From: Fimicolochytrium jonesii
Taxonomy: Eukaryota
Direction: 5' to 3'
Length of the DNA stretch: 64,000 bases
NCBI RefSeq assembly: GCF_025526975.1
Contig: NW_026515679.1
Coordinates: 434,001-498,000 of the forward strand
The translations under genes and the position numbers were made by a program. Under the pieces are notes generated by a model, which was not told the DNA's origin, made no database searches, and was given only the letters and a program-made list of their open reading frames with translations. Positions 26,451 to 43,299 of this stretch are shown piece after piece; the stretch's first letter is position 1; each line of letters starts with the position of its first letter.

Positions 26451-29400
26451 CTAAGCACCCCTGAATACCTTGATAAGCTCGGCCACCATGCCCGAGGTGT
26501 CGCTCCCCATAAACCCCGAATCGGCACCCGTGAACGAAACGCCTGACATCGGTGTTATCGGGGTCGTCGGATTGCAGCTCGGGTTGCCTGGCGCGGCCAT
26601 AGCTAGTGCATCGTAAAGACGACGGAAGTTCTCGAGCATCTCAATCACGGCTCCGAAGGATTGCTGATGATGTGTCATTGATGATTTTGCTAAAGCCCAG
26701 CTTTTCGAATCGTGCTGGATGAGAAGGCCAAGGACCATGGTTGCTTGTCCGGTCACCATTGCGCTGTTTGCCTCCTAGGAAACGAGAACAATGAGTATGA
26801 CGCATCGCAGGCCAGAGCTTGATGAACGTTTTACCTCGCTATCTTTTGCAAGTCGCTCATTGATAAAATCGGCGATGCACTTCACAGCTACTTGCCGTGA
26901 TGCACAAGTGCACCGCTGCATACAAGGAAGCCGGCTTGGACATGTGAGGGAGAATTCTAGAGGGTTGCCATGTCAGTGGGTAGTCAGGATTACAAAGGTA
27001 TCGTCGCGGGATGAAGCCCTCCACTGATCCTTACCATAGCTCCTTAGGTGCTTCTGAAGCTGTGGACGCTTGTGCGCAACGTTGGCAAGCAACGCGATGC
27101 CCAGCATCATAATGGCAAAGCTGTCCGTTTTCTCCTCAGGGGTTTCTTTCCCACGAGTATCATGTTCAGCATTCCACTCTGGAATGGCCGAGCCAACCGG
27201 GGAATTCTCCAACGTTGGAAGTAAATCGTTCGGCAGAAACCCGCATTTGAAGATCGATCCTAGCCATGGACCGCGGGCTATGCTTTCGGCGCATGTTGTG
27301 CTTGCATGCGTGAGGTTTATGAGCAATGCGAGCATGGCGTGGAGAAGTATTGACGCTGAGGAGGGACGGGTTAAGGCTTCGGACATCGTTATGATATACG
27401 ACGGATAGTTTCGCATACCTTCCTGGACATGAGTTTCATCCGCACGGGCATACACTACGAGAAACGTAGAGGGTCAGATCCCAATGCCAAGAACGCAGAG
27501 AATAGTACACATACCTGTCAACCAGGCCAGGGAAGCCATCAATTCGTTCAGGAATCCAGCCGTTTCGAGCAGCGCGACCGCATCATCACCGCATCTCATG
27601 GTTGCAAACTGCAGGATTCTCAAAGATGCCACCGTCAGACTTGATTCAGAGTACCAAAGTTTTTCGAAACTCGAGATGATGCTTTCGTCTGAGCCTTCCT
27701 CTGCGACGCTGTTTGCAACGCGCAAGAAGGTCGCCATCCTTTGGCTTATCAGCAGCCCGACGCCGTTCTCCCACAATTGGTATTGCAACCGGGGCACATT
27801 CAGCGGCTTTGCCGCAATTATAGCGGAAATCGCTCGGATAGAAAGGCTTTCCAAGCTCTCAACCTCGATGTTGGGTATAAAGGGTGCACATCGTAATGTT
27901 TTCTTGAGATCGGCGATAAATCTTCTCTCGTATTTGCTTGCTCCTCCGATCAAAGGATCGGGGTTCAACCTCAATGCTTTTGCAAAGTGTTGGATCAGTG
28001 CTGGATCTTGACTGAGGTCGTCTACATTGCGGCGATTTTGCACGAGTGCGCAGAGAATAAAAGTCACCATGGTGATGAGAATAGGATCTTCGATCGCCCG
28101 CACGAAGTCCATGAACCGCGCAAAGAATCCATGCGCCTTGACGTTCTGCACGAACTTTTCCGACAGTACTTTTGTGCACAACCTGAGGCAGCTACTCCGT
28201 TTGACTCCAGCAGGCTCTTCCGGGCCAAACCCACCCATGATGTACTCCATCTCATCGGCGAACCTCTTGGCTTCTCCAGCCTCACGGAGTTCGTGGATGC
28301 CTTTGACTTCTCTCCGATCTTCTTCGTCGTCGCTGCTTTCCAATCCCTCGTCTTTCCGTCGCTGAGCATCGGAGACGAACTTTGGCGCAAACAAGTCTTC
28401 TTCGGATTCGATATAGCTCCGCGTTCGGGCGTACGTCATTCCGGTCATGGCGCGTTTAACGTACGTTTCATCCCCTACGCTGGTTTCGATGCTCAGAGAC
28501 GAGTACAGGACCCGCTTCTCCGTCACTGACGAGATCGGCTGATTACTAAGATCGTCCGGATGGAGAACCAGTTCAGGAACACTGCTTTCCAATAAGTTAA
28601 CTGGCCCGTTGAGGGTGTTGAGAATGTGTGATTGTGACAGGAATGCCGAAGGGTCGGTGTCCATATCCACAGAAGTTCTTCTCGTCGGCGTACCAGGAGG
28701 CTTGCCTGAGGTCTTCATCCGAGCAACGCGACGCGTCGCTCTCGGTGAATCTCCCCGCAGGGGCCCGTTGCTTGCGTCGCCGCTGAAGGACAGCGCGCGC
28801 ATAGCCGTGGGGCCGCTGATGTCTGGTAGCAGCGCGGAAATGTCATCCAGAATGGAGAATGGCGGTGCCGACACCGACTTCTTCAGTGGAGAAGGAGATG
28901 TTGCATGACATCGATTACTCGAAACGTCAGATTTGGCATGCGGCAACGAAGGGGCACCTATTGTGCGCAACAATCCACTTCCGCGCCGTAAATGTTCATT
29001 ATTTGCTGGTGATGGGGCGGAATATGAGAAGGGGCCGCTGTCTTCCCCAATGGTCGATAGCGGGTTGGAGACACCTCCGAGGAGAAGACCGCCATCCTCC
29101 ACACCTGCCTCAGTCGGGGAATCCGTACCAAAATGCGCCTTCGATATATTGGGGAATGATCTCGGATCCGGCGTTGGTTTGTGAAGTTGTCTCCTTTTCG
29201 ACGGAGTTGCCTCTTCCGTGTATTGCTCGTCGACACCTCTTCCATTGTTCCTAGATTGGGTGGCCGAACTTTTTGATCTTTTCGTGCTGGGAGACTCCAC
29301 AGGCGTGCCATAAACGGATGCCAATGATGATTGAGACCCTTTTGATAATGTGTGAGGAGTTGACTCGGAAGGAGGATCCGAATGAGTTTTCGTTTCAGGG

Positions 29401-29891
29401 GTTGAAGCACTCTTCGCTTTCCTGGGCGACCTTCGCACCGGCGGTGAGGGAGGAGACCGGGGACTATTCGATCTGCTAGGTATGGCCTCCTTCTTGGAGG
29501 CTGCAGTGCTCGGTAGTATCTTTCGTCGTTTCTCGCTCCTAACTCGCTCCTCCCACTCAAAGGTGATAGTTTCGTCCTCGGACACCAGTTCGTCAAGCTT
29601 TTCCTTTGACGGTTGCCCGACACCTATTGGCAGCAATCGAGATCTCTTCCTCTTGGGTGGTGAATCCTGCTCTTCCAAAGTGAACGCAAAAGGGTCGCTT
29701 ACGGGCGAACCCTTACGGCTCGGACCCAGGGAACGACTCGCAGGACTTTTTGAGGACATTCCTACACTTTCTCCGTCAGTCGGAAATAGGCTAGTCGGCC
29801 ACGCTTGGTTTGACAACCCCGACGAGGCTCGCTTGACAGAACGCCGACTATAAGTTACGACCTTCTTGCGGAAACTCCCCTGGGAACTCAT
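26451..29891 (-). CDS. WAPL: Wings apart-like cohesin release factor (Wapl/Rad61)
   Basis: Long disordered N-terminus followed by TYARTRSY, VKGIHELREAGEAKRFADEMEYI and VKRSSCLRLCTK. C-terminal helical exons include LLINLTH, MLGIALLANV and VLGLLI. Confidence 0.85.
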
Positions 29892-30235
29892 CGTCGCGTC
29901 AGGAAACCCCCAGGGTTTTCGGAGAAGCGTCAAGCCAGGCACATCCACCGGGCCGCACAACCAGATACTCTTGAAACGGAGGAATGGTTTTCTGACCCAC
30001 CGTTGCCTGGCTTGTCGCTGTGCGCATATGAGGTCAGCTCTGGGAAAATTCAGGGTTTGGGGCCTGCGCAATGGTCCAATATTTCCAAAGACTTTTGCAA
30101 GTTTTAAGGACGCGAGGTCTCTCGTTTGTCACAACCCATGTTCCTCTCGTTTCCTCTCAGGTTTCCCCTCCTCTTGCACGGGCGTACAAAGACACAGCTG
30201 CCGAGTCAATCCCAACGTTGCTCCCAGTCGGTACC

Positions 30236-31376: not shown

Positions 31377-32335
31377 ATTCCTCAAATTGAGCTGCAGTAG
31401 GCGTCGGTGATCTGCCGCCGATTTCCCGTCTTGATTGGCAAGCTCTGTGCACTCGTACACCAAAATACGTGCAAATCACCCCGCGATCGCTAGGCTCCTC
31501 CCCGGTTCACGACGAAACCGATGCCAAGATGCGCCACCCAGCCTGGTTTAACGGAGGCACGTCCTCTCGAAGGCTGGTACAAAGAGACGCTTCGATCGGC
31601 AAGCTAGTCTTCACGTCGCTGCATTCACCGCTTTCAGCTTCATCACGAACACCTCGTCAGTTGGAATATCTCCAAATCCGCTATGTCAACGCAACATCTG
31701 GTGATAGGGAGTTCCCCAGTTTCAACGAACCTAGTCTCTTCCGTGAAGGCTTTGAGGAAACTCGCTGACCACATACTCAATTGTTGTCTCGCGCGCATAC
31801 CTAGGCAGTAACTGAAAGGGCGTCACGTCATATGCAATATATTGATCCTGATGGCTTGCACTTGTAGATACAGTACATAGCCCAATATATAATTCCGGCC
31901 CATCAGTGCACAAGAGTATGGGAGGGGCGGAAGCGGGTTGGTTTCGCTGTGTGCATAGATATGTGAGTGTGGAGCCCTCGGTACGCGGCCAACGGCTACT
32001 ACAACCGTCCGAGGTGGACACCATGACCGTTCCCAGGCACCTAATGCTTGAGGCTAACTTGGGGGACCCGACCTGCAAATATTTCCAACGGCAGAAAGTG
32101 ATCGCCATTCAACCCAGATATCCAACACACCCCAGATAAATAGTTGCCAGATGGATAGCCTGGATAAAACAGATACGAGGGGAACGTACTTACCGCTCCT
32201 CCAACGGTACTGTAGTTAGTCCCGCGGGTCGGTCAGGGTGAAGTCAACAAAGGCAAGATCAAAGGTGGGCTCGAATGTGAAAGGTGTACTCCAAGTGAAG
32301 TCCACTGAGCGACGCAGAATCCCTCCACCCGACCA

Positions 32336-33769
32336 GTGAAAATATCTCCCCCGAGACGCCAGCTTCAAGAGTCCGGCAGAGTGTCAGACCCTGTCTTGGG
32401 GGTCCCCTTCCCAGCCGACGGAGGTGGGCAGCTCCAGCTCATATGGAAAAACCCTCGCGTTGACTGGAACACAGTCTTTGTGCAGCCCGATGGACAGATA
32501 CGCCGTTTTGCTGGCAATGATCCTGGACAGAAGACTCAAGCTACGGCTGTATGGAGTGACATTGCACAAGAGGCAGCGGTGGCAGCTTTCGAAGACCGAG
32601 ATCTGCCAGCGAGAAATCAAGCAATTGTTGAGGTATCGGGACGCCAGTTATCGGGTCAAAAGCAAGGCCACCTGGTTCCAACAGAAGATGCGGCCCGTCA
32701 TTCGTTCGACCAAACGGATTGATGAACAGATTCGGCGGTTGCGCGGAAGTGAAAAAACCTTACACGGCACGGGGCTTCGTGAAGCCCTGAACTACTACAA
32801 TGTCGCCTACAAAGGATTGAAACGAAGGTAAATACATGCGTGGACATCTGCATTGCATCGTTTTTTGTGACTTGGAGTCTCACCCATTCTTTCTCATACA
32901 TCGTAGGCGCTGGGGGATGCGGAAAACATTCCAAGGTGTTGCCTTTGCAAGATGGCGGCTGTTCAGATTCGTCCACTCACAACGAGCCCTCATGGACGCT
33001 GCCCTGTACTCAATGGGCCGGATTACGCACCAACGCTGGGCTTCAACACGAGCACTCGGCCACACTCACGGTATCAAGCGGGGCGACGGAGAGTGGACGC
33101 GTTCGCTGAGACGGAAGGGAAGATTGCGCGGCCTGCTCCAGTACCAGTTCAATCGAAAGACGGGCGCAAAGCGAAACTTGCACCCTGAAGACCAACGAGC
33201 AATCTCTCTCGCGCGTCAACCTGTGTTTGCCTTTGGCTCTGGCGATTTCAGCAGGAAGCCAGGCTGGCGACGACCACATCCTGCTGTCCCTGTCAAGGCT
33301 CTCGCATACACTTCGCCGTTGCCGGTGCACCACCCTTATCATGAGCGAGCGGGGCAGCTCCATCAACTGTCATCCGGCAATCCAAGGGTATGAGGTCTGG
33401 CCTCACAAACCAAGTCCTGCTTTCCCTGACGACTACATGCACAAACTCAAGCACATTGAAATGCAGTGGTTCAAGTGCAGTCACCAGAAGCGCTGGTACC
33501 GACGACACCATGAACCGGGAACACATGCGCTGCGCCACTACTGTACCTCGAAGATGAAGACCAATGGGTGCCACGAACGACGCCTCTACAGCTGCACTAC
33601 CTGCCCCATCTATCGAGCTCCGACAGCACCCATCATCCTTGGGCGAGACATTCAAGCCGGTGCAAATTTTCGCTTTCTGATCTATCAGTACTCTCGCTAT
33701 CCAGGCCATAGACCTGTTTGGAACCGCGCACCAACTGTCCCATCACCGTTTCCTCCGGGTCTATGGTAG
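32336..33769 (+). mobile_element. Fanzor (TnpB-like RuvC, OMEGA RNA-guided nuclease) gene, intron-containing, frameshifted; N-terminal part degenerate
   Basis: RuvC-I FAGNDPGQKT (D at 32519-32521). Bridge/REC region ARWRLFRFVHSQRAL and PVFAFGSGDF..PAVPVK. RuvC-II LIMSERGSSINC (E at 33347-33349). Zn finger CTTC. RuvC-III ILGRDIQAGANF (D at 33647-33649), then a C-terminal RPVW. A GT-AG intron at 32828-32906 restores frame exactly. Two +1 shifts occur near 32639 and 33300. Confidence 0.85.
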
Positions 33770-33796
33770 TTTAGATCTATCTAGAAGGAGTAGTTG

Positions 33797-33825
33797 CCCC
33801 CCCCCCCCCCCCCTCCAAAAAAAAA
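33797..33825 (+). repeat. Poly-C (17 nt) followed by poly-A (9 nt) tract downstream of Fanzor
   Basis: Homopolymers read directly. Confidence 0.85.
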
Positions 33826-34645
33826 GCGATGGCACGTTAAAACACGTGCATATTATATACGCGGCTCACCTCCGAGTGGGCTGTGATGCATGCAGAGCTC
33901 ATCCCACCCAGCATCCCACAACGCGTAAGGACTGCTCGACCAATTCGACAGCGCTTTGTATAATCCTGGATTTGAAGTCCGTTTGATCGGACAGAGGACT
34001 TCGTCCAGTTCATTCGCGCACAATCAAGCCACATTCTGGTTCAACTCCCGATCAAAAAGTGCAGGGGATATCCCCCGTCAACCCTTAGAATCCAAGTCAT
34101 CCGACAATATCATATTATGAGCTGAACTCAAATGGAAGTTGGCATGAGTTCCGATCTTCAAACAATGTGAATCGGTGCCGTTCTGCTCCGATAACGTTCT
34201 CGATTTAATTTCCTGCGATGAATCCCACCAGTGTCACAACATCGGCGGAGGCGGGGGAGCCCACCGCCGAATATAGGCAAACTGGCTGATTGATGTTGAG
34301 GACTGTGAGGTCGTGTTTGAACTGATGACGGCGACGCGTTGGAAACTGGGGTGTCTTTTCTGGAAAACCGCCGCCTTATGCATACATTTGAGCACACACA
34401 CCAGAGAGGAAGCCAACGCAGATACTAGACGTGCATGGACATCGTATATTGAATGGCACAGCAGCATTCGGAATATCTGGCCGCCGCTCGGTATCTTGTA
34501 TGAAAAACTTCGTTTGGCGAACGCCGTCGTTCAGAGCACGACCACCGTCCTTTTCGCCATTCCCACTGAAATTCGAAACATCTCTTGAGGACTCCAGGGC
34601 CTGCGAGCGGCTCTCGCGCGTGGTCTCAGGAGCTTGGAGCATCCG

Positions 34646-37600
34646 ATGAAGCATCCTGAGGAGACCTCCAGTGGACACACAGCCATGCCCGTCCGCCGGA
34701 CTAAAAATCCCTCAAAGGGAGCCCTACAGGGGGCTTCCACGCAAACATTGACCACCAGGTCTAATGTCAGCCAGCCATCGTCATCGTCACTGCAATCCGG
34801 ACAATCAGAGGGCAGGTCTCAAAATCTGAAACACATGCCGGCCACGGGCAAGCGGAGTAAGGCCCTGATGGCTCGGGACTATTGGAATTGGAACAAGATG
34901 CAAAATGAGTTCCGGCCCTCCTGGAAAAACATCGTGTTGTTGCTATGGCTGCTGCCAGGAATCGCGGTAAGTCTAAGTGATCGGGGCTCGTGTCGCTTCT
35001 AATTCCATGTTGCTGATTTGCTTCGAATGTAGATATCGCTGGTCATCCTCTTCCTGACCAGGAGAGCATCAAGTGCTGCTGAAAGACAGCCGCTCCATTC
35101 CGATTGCCTCTCAACGGCCGCCGGCTTATCGAGCGCTCTACAACGTAAGTACGTTTGCTTGCTTGAGATACTTTGTTTTCCGAAGCTGACACTCGGCTGC
35201 ACATATAGGACCCAACACACAAATGTGAGCTCCACCTATGAATGCCTGGTGCAACATCTAATCCCTTCCCCAAGGTCTAACATCATTCCTTCAATAGCTA
35301 CGCTTACAGATGGTACTTCGACTCTGGTGTCCTTGTGGACCAGGCATCTTACCAGCGGTTCAGCGATGCCAGAATAGAAGACAAATCGCTGGTACTATTT
35401 TTCTTGTCACGTAAAGTTTCTGAAAGGGAGCAGTACACTCATACGTTTCTTCCAGGTGCCATGGGTCGGCTACGCTCTTTACGTCAAAGATCCCGAGAGA
35501 GCAGCTTGGGAGACAGCACATAACAGCACGATTTCACAATTCCGCTCGAACGATGACATATCGCAGGCCATTTACAGTAACTCGAACATGCCTGTCCGGG
35601 CCCGAGATGCCGTTGATTCCTATTTCCCAGTGCAATTCGTGCCAACGGGGAATGACTCGTTGATCGGTCTCGACGTAGGAAGTGGGCAGTCACTTCAGCA
35701 AACAATCTTTCAAGCGACATACAGCAAGTCCTTGAGCGTCAGTCCTCAGGTAAACACGCAAGTCGACTTCTGTGAGTCCGTCTCAGGCGTACTCCGGTGT
35801 ACTAAATCTCTCGTTGCAGATCATTGTCAACCTACCATCTGGAACAAGCCAAGCATACCAATATGCACTTCCGTGGCCCGGTTTAAACAGCGGTTTAAAC
35901 AATAGCCGTGAAATAATCGAAGGGGTATTCTTTGGGGTAAGTGTGCGCTCGGCGAAGTGCCAAAGTGGGTAGCAAAGAAGTGGAAAGTTAACATCTTGCT
36001 TCCGAACAGCTTATAGTTGTCCAGCCGCTCATTGACGACGTCGTTGAGGCAACGACGAGAAATGTCAGCGTGGCGATCCGAATCTTGGACGCCACTGACA
36101 GGAACAATGTCATCTACACGTATCCAAGGTATGCGTTTCATTGAGCTGTTCTGGTTTCTCACAAGAGTAAAGTGTATCTGGACTCGGAAACTCACATTCG
36201 TTTCCTTTTCTCATAGCGGCAATACAGCGAACGACAACACCGTCGGGTACTACAACATTGCTTTTGCGGATCGAAGATGGATCCTGCAGTGCTCAGGACG
36301 TGCTCCGGTTCTTCCGGGCCCATATCTAGCGTTTGGTGAGTTGCAAGTAAATACTAGAGACACTGGACTCTTATACTAACTTTTGTTTCCTTCCACAGTG
36401 TTCTCAATGCTCTTCTTCTTAACCTCAGCCCTCCTGACGCGTTGTTGCATGAAGAAATGTGCCATGAGGCGCGACAATGGGATGTTAATCGAGAACCCTA
36501 GAATGAGCGAGCGGCAGATTGATTGGATGCGATCCAATGCATTCTCCATCTTGAATGCCATTCGCGACCCACTATTCATCATCGACAAAGAAGGCTATAT
36601 CATCGACTCCAATGATGATGCCTACGTTTTGACCAAGTACGGAACTGAAGACCTCATATTCGGCATGCACATATCCAAGGTGTTTCCGGGGATCCTGGCT
36701 ATCAAAGCCAAGGAGATCAAGAAGGAGAAAGCTCAACAACCGAAGCTGTCCCATCCTCCCGGGCCTTGGGCAAGCAGTTACGCCCTGGAAAATGGGGCGC
36801 ATCACTCCGGAGGCGCATCAACACCTGAAATGCAGCAACACGGGGTCCCGCCCCATAATCATAGCGCGGATAGCGTGGTGGTTGAGATTGACAAAACGTA
36901 TCTGGAAATTCCGGGTATAACGCAGGGGGAGCGTGAACGTCCGGCTGCTGTCGACAAATCAACCGCGGAGCTGATGCCGCCTGGAGTCGCCGAAGCCATT
37001 CTGCGAACAAAAGATGGAAGGGAACTCTACGTCGAGGCGAACTTCTCGCCCATCATCGATTGCCAGGACGGACGAGAGAAGATCCAAATCATTATGTTCC
37101 GTGATATCACCTCGTGGAGAAACCAAGTACGAGATGCAGTGGAAGCTAAGGAAGCTGCAGAGCTAGCACGGAACGAAAACACGGACTACTTGTCGTTTGC
37201 CACCCATGAGTTGAGAAGTATGGACATACTCGCAGCATTCTCCTTCTCGCCTGCTCGTTGTGCTGACATTCCTGATATTTTGCAGATCCTTTGCACGTCA
37301 TCGTCGGCCTTAATGGCATTCTGATGCAGTCGCTGTCGCAGACACTCAAGGGGCTAGACCTTGATTCAAGTGGTTCCAAGGATAGCAGCTCCAGAGATCT
37401 CACCAGAAGTTTATCGGTTGCTTCACCTCAAGCACTGTCACCTCAGGCGTTGTCCCCCGCGCTTCCCCCGACTTCGCCCGGCATTACTAGGCCCTTGTCA
37501 CCTGGACTGATCGGCCAGCCTGGTGGTATTTCTTCGCATAGTGCCAACACATCGCACAGCGAGGCCTTAGACCATCTAGCATCTATATCGGACGCTACTC

Positions 37601-39618
37601 GCGTGATGCGATCTATCCTGAACGATACTCGCATGTTGTCGAAGGTCGAATCCGGAACAATAGAGTTCCAGAAAACCGCGTTCGACCTGAAAGACTTGCT
37701 TCAGCGAATCTACAAGTCGCAGATGGTCTATTGTGAGACATACAAAGCACAAAAATTCGCTTTGGATGCAGAAAATTCTGCAACGGAAACAGTCAAGAAC
37801 GTCTCGATACAATTGGAGCTGAAAGGCCTCGAGGAAGAGGCGCGAATCGGGTCATCGGAGAACATTGCCGGGCTTAGCTCCACTGACAACGCAACAGACA
37901 CTACCTCGTTGAAGGGCTGGTTCCCTACCAACATCAAGGCAGATCCAGCGCGCCTGGCCCAGGTTTTGACTAGCCTCATCAACAACGCTTTCGAACACAC
38001 CGAAAAGGGGTCCGTCACTCTCCGTGTTATTGTCGAAAATGTCCGGCAGGTAGGTGAAGGACCTCGCAGTCCGGCCTCCGTTTCCAGGAAGTCGCGGAGT
38101 AGGTTGGATATGAATCGACCGCGCGCTCAAGTCCTGGTGCGTTTCGAAGTCGAAGACACTGGGCGTGGAATGCCTCGTAGCGAGATGCCTAAGCTTTTCA
38201 AGTCGTATGCTCATGGCTCCGTCGGTAAGGTAGTCTCTCGGAAGTCGTCATACAGCATGCATCTCTGCTCATTCTTGTGAACTTCGTAGATCGCACATTG
38301 GGTTCGCGAAGCATTTCCCTCAATGTGGCCTATGCAATGCTTGCGCTCATGGGGGCTGAGCTTCAGGCCTTCTCAACGGTCGGACAAGGGACAACGATCT
38401 GGTTCTCACTGTGGTTCGACGTTGCCGAACAGTCCTTACCCAGGACTGGTTCTTACGAGGATATGGAGGATCCAGACTCAGCCCTGAAGCCGATTGGTGT
38501 CGTCAACCCGAATATGGGCATCCGCGAGGCGCGGAGGGAGATATCCATACCACAAGAAAAGGAAAAGCTCGCAGTCGATGACTTCGATGGTGCTGAGACC
38601 TTGCCGGGTCCGGTCCTTCGCACGACAGAACCTCCGAGCATTGGAGTGACCACAGGCCCTACCAACCAGTTCGAAAGCATCACAGGTGGATCAGCTCCCG
38701 GCAATAAGGAAGCGAAACCCCAACCACGTAAAGGACTGGAACAAAGAGCCCAGACCTCGATCCGGCGAAGCCGCAGCGGTGCAGATGAACCAAGTTCGAA
38801 AGAAGTATTGCTACGATCGAACACGACAATCGGAACTGCAGTGACCAAACAGCCGAGCGAAGAGCCTCAGGAACAGGAAAAGGGCAACGATGCTCCGAAG
38901 GGAGAGTCATCCAAACTGCCCGCTCGAAAGTCTACCTCCGCCTCGAAAACCGCAAAGAAGCCGAAGACTGCTGCCCGCCGCCTGGGGACTCATCCTTCTA
39001 AGGACAGGGCTATTCGTGTGCTTGTGGTGGAGGACAACGAAGTCTTGCTCAAGATTGCTGGAACAACCCTCGCCCGTGCCGGATTTGAGGTGCAGCAGGC
39101 TGTCAATGGTGAACAAGCCATAAACAAAGTCCTCGAGCTGGGCGACAAGTACTTTGATGTGGTGCTGATGGTGAGCACCGACAAGCGTGGTCCCTCTTAC
39201 CTACATGTCACTAATCATTGACTGCTTTGTTTCTTCAAATAGGATTTGCTTATGCCTGTAATGGACGGTTTCCAAGCTACAGAGGAGATCCGTCGCCGTG
39301 GGTGGACCATGCCTGTGATTGCATTGACAGCGAAGACTCTGGAATCGTAAGTGCAACCTATGTGTGATTACCCCCCCCCCCCCCCCCCCCCGTAGATGAA
39401 GGCTAATTTGCTGTCGCACCCACTCCGTACTTTACAGGGACCGATTGAGATGCTTCAAGATCGGGTTCAACTACTTCATGACCAAGCCGTTCCAGCTAGG
39501 TGACATCGCGACTGTCATTCGATTTATGGTTGGAGCGGAGGCAGAGCAACAAGCTCAAACCCCGGGTGAAGGCCCGGTGCAGCCCACTTATGGTGGTCCA
39601 TGGTCGAAATTCGCTTGA
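34646..39618 (+). CDS. Hybrid histidine kinase: TM-CHASE-TM-PAS-HisKA-HATPase-receiver
   Basis: [20 protein letters not shown]-like [76 protein letters not shown]-box [18 protein letters not shown]-box [12 protein letters not shown] and G1 [42 protein letters not shown]. Confidence 0.9.
39371..39391 (+). repeat. Poly-C tract (21 nt) inside last intron of histidine kinase gene
   Basis: Homopolymer read directly. Confidence 0.9.
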
Positions 39619-42055: not shown

Positions 42056-43299
42056 ATGGTGCAGGATGACGCCGCTTTAAGGATTCAGAGAGGATGGAAA
42101 GCGTATGTCGATCGACGGACTTTCGGGTGGTTGAAGGAGAATCTATTACGAGCGGTGAGTGCTCCTAGTTACTTCAGCGCCATATCGGGAACTTTGACCA
42201 CTGAAAGGTGTTCCCCTCCCCCCCCCCCCCCCCCCCCCTCCCTCCCTCCCGGGTATCAAGGAGCGTTCTATGACGATGGAAATCTTACGCAGGCTTGCAC
42301 CGAAAGAAGCCGAGCTGATGCGCGACCCTGTGTTTGAGGCTAGGATCAGATTCCGGTGCGTTGGACATTATGGCGTTGGACGCAATGCCCTGAAACTCAC
42401 ATCCAAGACGCACCACAGCTTTGGAGGCACTTCCTTCCCACCGACCATCATGTATAAGATTTATACGAAAAGCAACAGCGTGCATTACTACAGCGGAAAT
42501 CGTGTGATCCAGTCTCATACGCAGGTGAATATTGATCCTGCATTAATGTGTCGCCCCGAACGGCACTATCGCCCCGGGCGTGTCTTGGCGATGTGATCTT
42601 CTCGCTTACAATATGTGTTTGTTCCATGCCAGACAGGCGGCCGTTGATTCCTGCACGATCATGGGTGTTCGCTTGTATGCAGAGAACCTGATTCGGACGG
42701 AGCAACAGAATCGGGCTTTGAAGATGCCACATTCTGATCAGGTGACGAACCGGCTGGAGTTCATACAGGTATGTTTGTAAAAGCACCGCGGGAAAGGTAT
42801 ATGATAACGGACGTCTTGACACCATAGCACATGAGCTCCCTGGACCAAAAGCCTGCATACATGGGTGGCCGCAACAACGGGTGGCGGGAGATGAACGTAA
42901 CGCGTAAGTCACCCGCTGTCCTTTCCTTGCATTGACCTGGACCCCGTTGCTGAAGGATATCCGCATGAATTGCAGCATATGCAGGGCTATCTGAGTGTGT
43001 TTTCGACGTTAGAAGGAGAGGAGGTGTGCCGGAACGGAGAGCTTTGCCGTGGAAACGGAGGTGAGCTTCTTGCCAAGATCCATCGCCAAATCAGGTCCTC
43101 ACTGAAACGGACTCCTTCGCAGACCACAAAAACCGGGAAATTGCGGTAAAGGGCGGAATGAACCACGGTTCGGAAAAGCGGGGGATGATCGGCAAATGTA
43201 CAAACATGAAGACGATCTTTGGGAAGACGACGACTTTGATCCATTGTTTGCGTGGACGAACAACCTGAATCTGGAGTCGCTGGTGGACTATGTGCTTGA
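42056..43299 (+). CDS. CXorf58-like protein with N-terminal IQ-like motif (3' end uncertain)
   Basis: Spliced: AALRIQRGWKAYVDRRTF..|ERSMTMEILRRLAPKEAELMRDP..IRFR|FGGTSFPPTIMYKIY..|LDQKPAYMGGRNNGWR, resembling the CXorf58 family of ciliated eukaryotes. Confidence 0.65.
42218..42238 (+). repeat. Poly-C tract (21 nt) inside first intron of CXorf58-like gene
   Basis: Homopolymer read directly, flanked by CCCT repeats. Confidence 0.9.

What the first reader, a model, noticed from the sequence alone, without database searches (positions are those of the whole stretch)
32336..33769. Hidden Fanzor (eukaryotic RNA-guided TnpB-like nuclease) split over four ORF fragments
Seen: four consecutive + strand ORFs (32336-32722, 32424-32831, 32836-33393, 33227-33769) carry motifs in the expected order. 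These are FAGNDPGQKT, ARWRLFRFVHSQRAL, VFAFGSGDF..PAVPVK, LIMSERGSSINC, CTTC, GRDIQAGANF and RPVW. Known: this is the RuvC-I (DPG) / RuvC-II (E-x-x-S-S-x-x-C) / zinc finger / RuvC-III (RD-x-x-A-x-x-N) layout of TnpB/Fanzor, and the FG-x-G-x-F...P-x-K segment and C-terminal RP are typical of Fanzor1. Fanzors are known from chytrids (SpuFz1 of Spizellomyces). All three catalytic acidic residues are retained (D 32519, E 33347, D 33647). Inference: a divergent Fanzor family member, about 450 aa reconstructable, inserted between the cyclin and histidine kinase genes. Intact relatives may exist elsewhere in the genome.
Basis: partly seen in the sequence, partly recalled or inferred. Interest (0 to 1): 0.9.

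Follow-up and report, generated by a model that had tools for sequence, protein, structure and literature searches.

The report
Broken, highly divergent chytrid Fanzor gene
This is the frameshifted, intron-split back half of what is likely a Fanzor1 gene (an RNA-guided DNA cutter of eukaryotic transposons) in a chytrid fungus; it is probably dead, and its main interest is that it differs far more from known relatives than they differ from each other.

Summary
All motifs and the three acidic codons are at the stated coordinates. A database gene model over two of the frames names the species Fimicolochytrium jonesii and supports an intron at 32828-32906.

No Pfam, NCBIfam or PDB sequence hit was found, and phmmer against 1.84 billion representatives returned only the protein itself. 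A Fanzor1 profile built here does recognise it. The read-through scores 10.2 bits, above all 2000 shuffles. An eight-block chain scores 41 against a null of 3±5. So it is likely Fanzor1-derived, but much more divergent than 32 references (69-522 bits).

A probable further intron (33388-33466) explains the zinc-finger 'insertion'. No REC/WED lobe, in-frame ATG, TIR or transposase was found.

Best reading: a recently decayed (no stop in 458 codons, under about 5% divergence), 5'-truncated relic of a divergent Fanzor1 lineage. Structure tests were inconclusive. Intact copies could not be sought because no genome is held.

The parts
32309..32575 (+). Frame A: linker and RuvC-I strand with DPG (Asp codon 32519-32521); no ATG upstream of it in this frame
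   Evidence: colinear profile alignment; hhalign places DPG on RuvC-I (E 0.29)
32537..32600 (+). First +1 frameshift (A to B), exact base not fixed; a 61-nt GT-AG 32549-32609 would restore the frame but lacks a branch signature and would remove conserved sequence
32577..32827 (+). Frame B exon: WQLSKTE strand and the helices after RuvC-I
32828..32906 (+). 79-nt GT-AG intron joining B to C in frame
   Evidence: spliced out in database model P0005; GC dip to 42.5%
32907..33309 (+). Frame C exon: bridge-helix-like RWRLFRF..QRAL, an insert of about 60 aa, FAFGSGDF strand, PVK lid
33305..33311 (+). Second +1 frameshift (C to D) just before RuvC-II
   Evidence: D frame matches RuvC-II (E 0.008), C frame does not (E 0.77); no plausible intron spans it
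33311..33387 (+). Frame D: RuvC-II E-x-x-S-S-x-x-C (Glu codon 33347-33349) and first zinc ligand
33388..33466 (+). Probable second intron (GTATGA donor, CTGAC branch 33427, TGCAG acceptor; an AAG at 33451 gives the same frame). It joins frame C to frame D in frame and equals the stretch gapped in all 21 homologues
   Evidence: not tested by RNA
33467..33769 (+). Last exon, frame D: Cys/His-rich TNB region, CTTC, RuvC-III RD (Asp codon 33647-33649), RP, stop
   Evidence: E 0.0014
33706..33785 (+). 11-bp stem closing at the base before the stop codon, plus a 6-bp hairpin; candidate guide-RNA scaffold (untested)
   Evidence: (5 such stems in 64 kb)
33860..34008 (+). Two further hairpins (33860-33885, 33966-34008); candidate 3' end or guide-RNA structure (untested)
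   Evidence: z -2.9 and -3.1, on windows chosen after seeing the folds
31377..32308 (+). Upstream stretch where REC/WED would lie; no detectable match, as broken as random DNA
   Evidence: (7 breaks vs 8.2±2.0)

Best explanation
This is likely a dead, 5'-truncated relic of a divergent, intron-bearing Fanzor1 gene in a Spizellomycetales chytrid. Shown: the motif order, one intron backed by a gene model, two frameshifts and no in-frame stop. Inferred from the family: the ancestor bound a guide RNA made from the element's 3' end, opened a DNA target next to a short motif with its REC/WED lobe, and cut it with the D32519/E33347/D33647 RuvC triad. The present copy is predicted unable to do this, because no plausible transcript reads all three acids in one frame and the recognition lobe is not detectable. 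The large distance from known Fanzor1s is inferred to be mostly old lineage divergence rather than decay.
For: Reference profile validated on solved Fanzor1s (SpuFz1 1e-44, PpFz1 2e-40, GtFz1 7e-25). Read-through 10.2 bits, E 1.1e-5 for one comparison, above all 2000 shuffles (best 5.0) and the reversed sequence (-1.2). Eight-block chain 41.0, next best 1.2 on the + strand and 5.8 on the - strand, null 3.0±5.4 with maximum 19.4 in 60 shuffles. With the FG block as anchor, the five blocks not in the element-derived retrieval pattern rank in the top 0.11% of anchor positions. Colinear alignment from DPG to SSxxC. E, C, C, C, D and P invariant across the D frame and 21 homologues. Each of four pieces aligns to its expected motif, in order. 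The D-X(125,275)-[TS][TS] spacing of PMC3627910 is met at 253. No stop in 458 codons; P(0 stops) is 0.035 at 5% neutral divergence.
Against: No hit in Pfam, NCBIfam, PADLOC, PDB sequences or the Atlas, and only two chance-level PHROG rows. The narrow 109-sequence profile gave -0.8 bits, below shuffles. No single block stood out in tiled frames, and unanchored the independent blocks were at null level (13.6 vs 13.4±4.0). hhalign probabilities were only 0.2-32%. Part of the reference set was retrieved with a pattern drawn from this locus, so the FG/PxK/RuvC-II score is partly circular. Structure searches were weak even with a Fanzor alignment (Foldseek E 5.9, VIA Z at most 3.0). D-to-E spacing 251 exceeds the 146-227 range of 121 references.
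Confidence: 0.8

Rival explanations
1. The gene is intact in the organism: the frameshifts are assembly errors or one broken allele, and the 5' lobe is encoded in unrecognised upstream exons.
For: No nonsense codon in the core; canonical intron ends kept; all three catalytic codons kept.
Against: A 2543-aa frame and an 884-aa frame in the same window are unbroken. Neither break lies in a long homopolymer. Only 932 nt separate frame A from the upstream gene's stop, with 7 breaks and no REC/WED signal, whereas full-length references hold 281-522 aa before RuvC-I.
Confidence: 0.07
2. A domesticated, nuclease-dead derivative: a transcript from ATG 32490 with both introns spliced gives a continuous 373-aa frame that bypasses the RuvC-I Asp and RuvC-II Glu but keeps the bridge helix, lid, CxxC and RuvC-III, and would act as an RNA- or DNA-binding protein.
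For: The database model starts at this ATG. The candidate intron joins C to D in frame. The locus sits among host genes without detectable TIRs.
Against: No orthologue among 1.84 billion representatives. The model stops inside the putative donor, so its makers did not splice there. The RuvC-II strand would be read in the wrong frame. Two frameshifts compensate by chance about half the time.
Confidence: 0.06
3. The motifs are a chance assembly, or belong to an unrelated broken host gene.
For: No library, homologue or structure hit; weak scores for single pieces.
Against: Chain, shuffle and anchored tests; correct order and near-family spacing of eight blocks.
Confidence: 0.07

Closest known systems
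SpuFz1 of Spizellomyces punctatus (PDB 8GKH; PMC10432273)
   Same: Same fungal order; DP-type RuvC-I, late RuvC-II Glu, RuvC-III RD and terminal RP in the same order; lid-to-Glu spacing alike.
   Different: SpuFz1 is one 638-aa ORF between 30-nt inverted repeats, in 42 loci with 19 full-length. This locus is split, lacks REC/WED and detectable TIRs, and has longer spacings (D-E 251 vs 158; E-D 100, or about 74 without the second intron, vs 65). No direct sequence hit between them.
PpFz1 of Parasitella parasitica (PDB 9CF0; PMC11423790)
   Same: Has an insertion of about 100 aa in RuvC (FRI domain). The profile match to it breaks in the same general interval as this locus's insert.
   Different: The insert here is about 60 aa and no likeness to FRI was tested; some metagenome Fanzor1s also have long inserts there (19-88 aa between the blocks).
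Intron-containing Fanzor1, e.g. CRe-1/2/3 and CrFNuc of Chlamydomonas reinhardtii (PMC3627910, PMC10530073)
   Same: Fanzor1 gene broken by spliceosomal introns.
   Different: Those are multi-copy Helitron2-borne elements with EST support; here no carrier transposon, copy or transcript is shown.
Metagenome Fanzor1s L105, L082, L146 (contig ids)
   Same: Best pairwise scores to the read-through (9.5-11 bits), sharing the FG..F..AP/VPVK.L segment.
   Different: The scores are marginal and the loci were retrieved with a pattern drawn from this locus, so no clade assignment follows.

Membership tests
Fanzor/TnpB (Bao and Jurka motif) | D-X(125,275)-[TS][TS]-X-X in the C-terminal half | tested here: met
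   Spacing 253 in the read-through, across two frameshifts
Fanzor/TnpB (Bao and Jurka motif) | C4 zinc finger followed within 5-50 aa by RD | tested here: inconclusive
   First Cys, CTTC and RD (13 aa later) present; the second ligand lies beyond the probable intron, not at +3
Fanzor1 | Significant match to a Fanzor1 profile | tested here: met
   Diverse profile E 1.1e-5 for one comparison, chain and anchored tests; the narrow profile failed; the score is far below references
Fanzor1 | Rearranged RuvC-II: Gly/Pro at the canonical site, alternative Glu downstream | tested here: met
   FG strand and E-x-x-S-S-x-x-C align with the invariant G and E of the references; that this Gly is the canonical site is inferred
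Fanzor1 | D/E/D triad superposes on a RuvC active site | tested here: inconclusive
   Only the D frame could be folded (pLDDT 63 with a Fanzor alignment); Fanzor and Cas12 rows rank high but at E 5.9 and Z at most 3.0
Fanzor1 | N-terminal REC and WED lobes (protein mostly 600-700 aa) | tested here: not met
   No match in 31377-32308; read as truncation of this copy
Fanzor1 | Continuous reading frame holding all catalytic residues | tested here: not met
   Two frameshifts, at least one not explained by any plausible intron
Fanzor1 | Guide RNA from the 3' end | tested here: inconclusive
   Hairpins at and after the stop; no Rfam match of note; no copies for covariation
Fanzor1 | Carried by a transposon (TIR/TSD, Helitron ends or transposase) | tested here: inconclusive
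   No TIR or second copy in the window; ends cannot be defined from one copy; some Fanzor elements lack TIRs
Fanzor1 | RNA-guided DNA cleavage | not testable with these tools
   Needs a bench assay
Fanzor2 / IS607 TnpB | Closer to IS607 TnpB, with a serine recombinase partner | tested here: inconclusive
   No Pfam, NCBIfam or plasmid TnpB hit and no recombinase among the neighbouring frames scanned; no Fanzor2 profile was built

The most novel reading that the evidence does not exclude
The locus is not simply dead: it is a host-retained, nuclease-dead Fanzor derivative, expressed as a spliced 373-aa protein that bypasses two catalytic acids and binds a hairpin RNA from its own 3' end, and it marks a deeply divergent chytrid Fanzor1 lineage missed by current surveys. 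The milder half of this (a divergent, recently active lineage with intact copies in this or related genomes) has about even odds and would merit about 0.55.
Probability: 0.07. Interest if true: 0.75.

Novelty: new member of a known kind. Interest (0 to 1): 0.35.

Why it matters
Fanzor1 nucleases are sought as compact genome editors, and chytrids gave the best-studied one. A copy that decayed recently yet has no close relative among 1.84 billion representative proteins suggests that intron-split or mis-annotated Fanzor1 lineages escape protein-based surveys: here the public gene model lacks all three catalytic residues. The locus itself is probably unusable. Its value is as a probe for intact relatives in Spizellomycetales genomes.

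Tried and rejected
Sequencing runs: none was listed, so neither frameshifts nor splicing could be checked on reads.

Homologue searches with the locus's own pieces: 0 of 31 candidates; 1 of 243, its own gene model; only itself among 1.84 billion; 0 of 7 and 0 of 1 viral stretches; 1 of 174 prokaryotic stretches, a 19-aa match taken as chance (L162); one plasmid row at E 6. Atlas: no usable hit.

Single-sequence AlphaFold gave pLDDT 33. The alignment-guided model is circular and its fold searches were inconclusive. Codon-usage profile uninformative.

A 28-, 37- or 61-nt intron from 32549 as the cure for the first frameshift was rejected: too short, or purine-rich without a branch signature, and it removes aligned sequence. 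Weak upstream look-alikes of WED motifs (31829; 32077-32225) were not significant. Three viral matches to the 3' stem were not at Fanzor genes. L041 and 25 of the 26 loci were not Fanzors. One frameshifted reference (L060) was dropped from the block tests. No tree was built. The planned rescoring with the second intron removed did not run, so its effect on the profile score is unknown.

Print check: searches for Fanzor with chytrid, Chytridiomycota, intron or domestication terms, and for the genus name, showed no description of this locus in their listings. The supplements of PMC10432273 lack the genus and accessions while holding Spizellomyces (file 2 unreadable). The search of the PMC10530073 supplements also missed the positive control and says nothing.

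Full report
Observation. A search with frame C returned 1 of 243 candidates: a 274-aa uncharacterised protein of Fimicolochytrium jonesii, identical over the query. The species belongs to Spizellomycetales. That model starts at ATG 32490 in frame B, splices 32828-32906 (79 nt) and ends at the stop of frame C, so it holds none of the three catalytic residues. Neighbours are a WAPL gene and a CHASE/PAS/HATPase histidine kinase. The gene directly upstream looks cyclin-like from recall, but its tested exon had no Pfam hit.

Standard searches fail. The pieces hit nothing relevant in Pfam, NCBIfam, PADLOC, PHROGs or PDB sequences, and phmmer of the 274-aa model against 1.84 billion representatives returned only itself. 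This is weak evidence against the family: a genuine viral Fanzor1 also found no Fanzor in the PDB by single-sequence search, and 3 of 6 references tested had no TNB match in Pfam.

A reference set was therefore built. Degenerate motif scans gave Fanzor1-like frames in viral contigs. Their profile retrieved 218 proteins, of which 120 were listed. A metagenome scan added divergent members from 117 matched stretches. Profiles of this set match SpuFz1, PpFz1 and GtFz1 in the PDB, so it is a Fanzor1 set.

Family test. A read-through with X at the two frameshifts (461 aa) scored -0.8 bits on a narrow 109-sequence profile, below shuffles. On a 32-sequence diverse profile it scored 10.2 bits (E 1.1e-5 for one comparison), above 1000 residue shuffles (best 3.7), 1000 block shuffles (best 5.0) and its reverse. 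A chain of eight blocks scored 41.0 here, at most 5.8 elsewhere in the window, and 3.0±5.4 (maximum 19.4) in 60 shuffles. The metagenome pattern was drawn from this locus's FG, PxK and RuvC-II motifs, so the other five blocks were tested apart. Unanchored they were at null level (13.6 vs 13.4±4.0 in 40 shuffles). Anchored on the FG block they ranked in the top 0.11% of anchor positions, and higher still with a profile of 17 proteins not retrieved by that pattern (neighbouring anchors are not independent). A full-length profile aligned the read-through colinearly from DPG to SSxxC. MAFFT placed the D frame's E, three C, D and P on columns invariant in 21 homologues. In hhalign each of four pieces landed on its expected motif (E 0.29, 0.00076, 0.008, 0.0014). 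Structure gave little: pLDDT 33 alone and 63 with a Fanzor alignment, with Fanzor and Cas12 chains near the top but at Foldseek E 5.9 and Z at most 3.0. I put Fanzor1 ancestry at about 0.9.

How divergent, how old. Left out in turn, 32 of 32 references scored 69-522 bits, against 10 here (the references were selected by similarity). Yet the core has no stop in 458 codons, which a neutral simulation allows with probability 0.035 at 5% divergence and 0.003 at 7.5%, and it needs 2 frame changes against 9.5±2.1 in shuffles. The inference is that decay is recent and most of the distance is lineage divergence. The D-to-E spacing of 251 lies outside the 146-227 range (121 of 146 references measurable); E-to-D 100 lies within 36-120 (133 of 146).

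Gene anatomy. Both breaks are +1. The second (about 33305-33311) is real in this assembly: the D frame fits RuvC-II and the C frame does not, and no plausible intron spans it. The first could formally be bridged by a 61-nt GT-AG, but that stretch has no branch signature and holds aligned sequence. This signature occurs 13 times (9 distinct donors) in the window against 2.5 expected, and several of the others lie at frame junctions of neighbouring genes. It coincides with a GC dip to 47.5% and with the 33-column gap shared by all 21 homologues, and frame C ends inside its donor. I rate it about 0.7 a real intron. Spliced, it joins frame C to the last exon in frame. A 373-aa frame from ATG 32490 is then possible that skips both the RuvC-I Asp and the RuvC-II Glu, and the ancestral frame would need a third small lesion or the acceptor at 33480. 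Upstream, 932 nt remain before the neighbour's stop; they need 7 frame changes (random 8.2±2.0) and match no REC or WED block. SpuFz1 has 382 residues before its RuvC-I Asp.

Ends and guide RNA. No TIR or second copy was found in the window, and Rfam gave only a chance-level row. An 11-bp stem closes on the base before the stop codon; 5 such stems occur in 64 kb. Two more hairpins follow within 240 nt. GtFz1's guide overlaps its last 17 codons and SpuFz1's lies just after the stop, so the position fits, but over wider windows the folding z-scores are only -0.7 to -1.9 or positive. This remains a lead.

Mechanism. Shown: motif order, spacing, one supported intron, two frameshifts. From established knowledge of Fanzor1 (PMC10432273, PMC10530073, PMC11423790): guide-RNA-directed cleavage by a D/E/D RuvC centre, with target-motif reading by REC/WED. 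Inferred: the ancestor worked this way inside a transposon of unknown type; this copy lost its 5' lobe and its frame and is inactive.

Novelty. Fanzor1s in chytrids, introns in Fanzor genes and RuvC inserts are all in print, and earlier notes of this scan describe similar dead fungal fragments (unchecked). This locus was not found in the searches named under Tried and rejected. It is a new, unusually divergent, broken member of a known kind.

Papers seen. PMC10432273: abstract, sections 5, 7 and 10, supplement searches. PMC10530073: passages and a supplement search. PMC3627910: passages. PMC11423790: passages and section 4. PMC13533422 and PMC12247965: passages. Others: search listings only. 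Supplements not seen (file 2 of PMC10432273, those of PMC3627910 and PMC11423790, and bioRxiv files) could hold closer Fanzor1 relatives.

Noticed in passing
window 33797-33826, 39372-39391, 42216-42243: Long C runs; the first is followed by an A run just 3' of the Fanzor stop.
   Followed up: no
window 31776-32193, - strand: Strong donor-like sites (GTAAGTAC 32193, GTATGC 31800, GTATGT 31776) and short protein-like frames on the minus strand of the upstream stretch; possible unannotated or antisense transcript. No Pfam hit.
   Followed up: partly
window 27477-30128 (-) and 35378-38277 (+): WAPL-domain gene and a CHASE/PAS/HATPase histidine kinase, both ordinary fungal genes.
   Followed up: yes
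L061:26-2839 (+), L133:1-657 (+): Fanzor1-like proteins with HD in place of RD at RuvC-III; L061 is a 938-codon frame, the lowest-scoring reference.
   Followed up: no
L066:335-2851, L070:1304-2851, L077:127-2538 (+): Large Fanzor1s (up to about 840 aa) with long RuvC inserts and a reduced second zinc-ligand pair.
   Followed up: no
L049 and L081, - strand: Fanzor1 genes split over several frames, probably by introns, in metagenome contigs.
   Followed up: no
literature on the species (PMC13533422): An isolate of this species carries a lone giant-virus capsid gene on a fungal contig, a conceivable past route for Fanzor entry; no link to this locus is shown.
   Followed up: no
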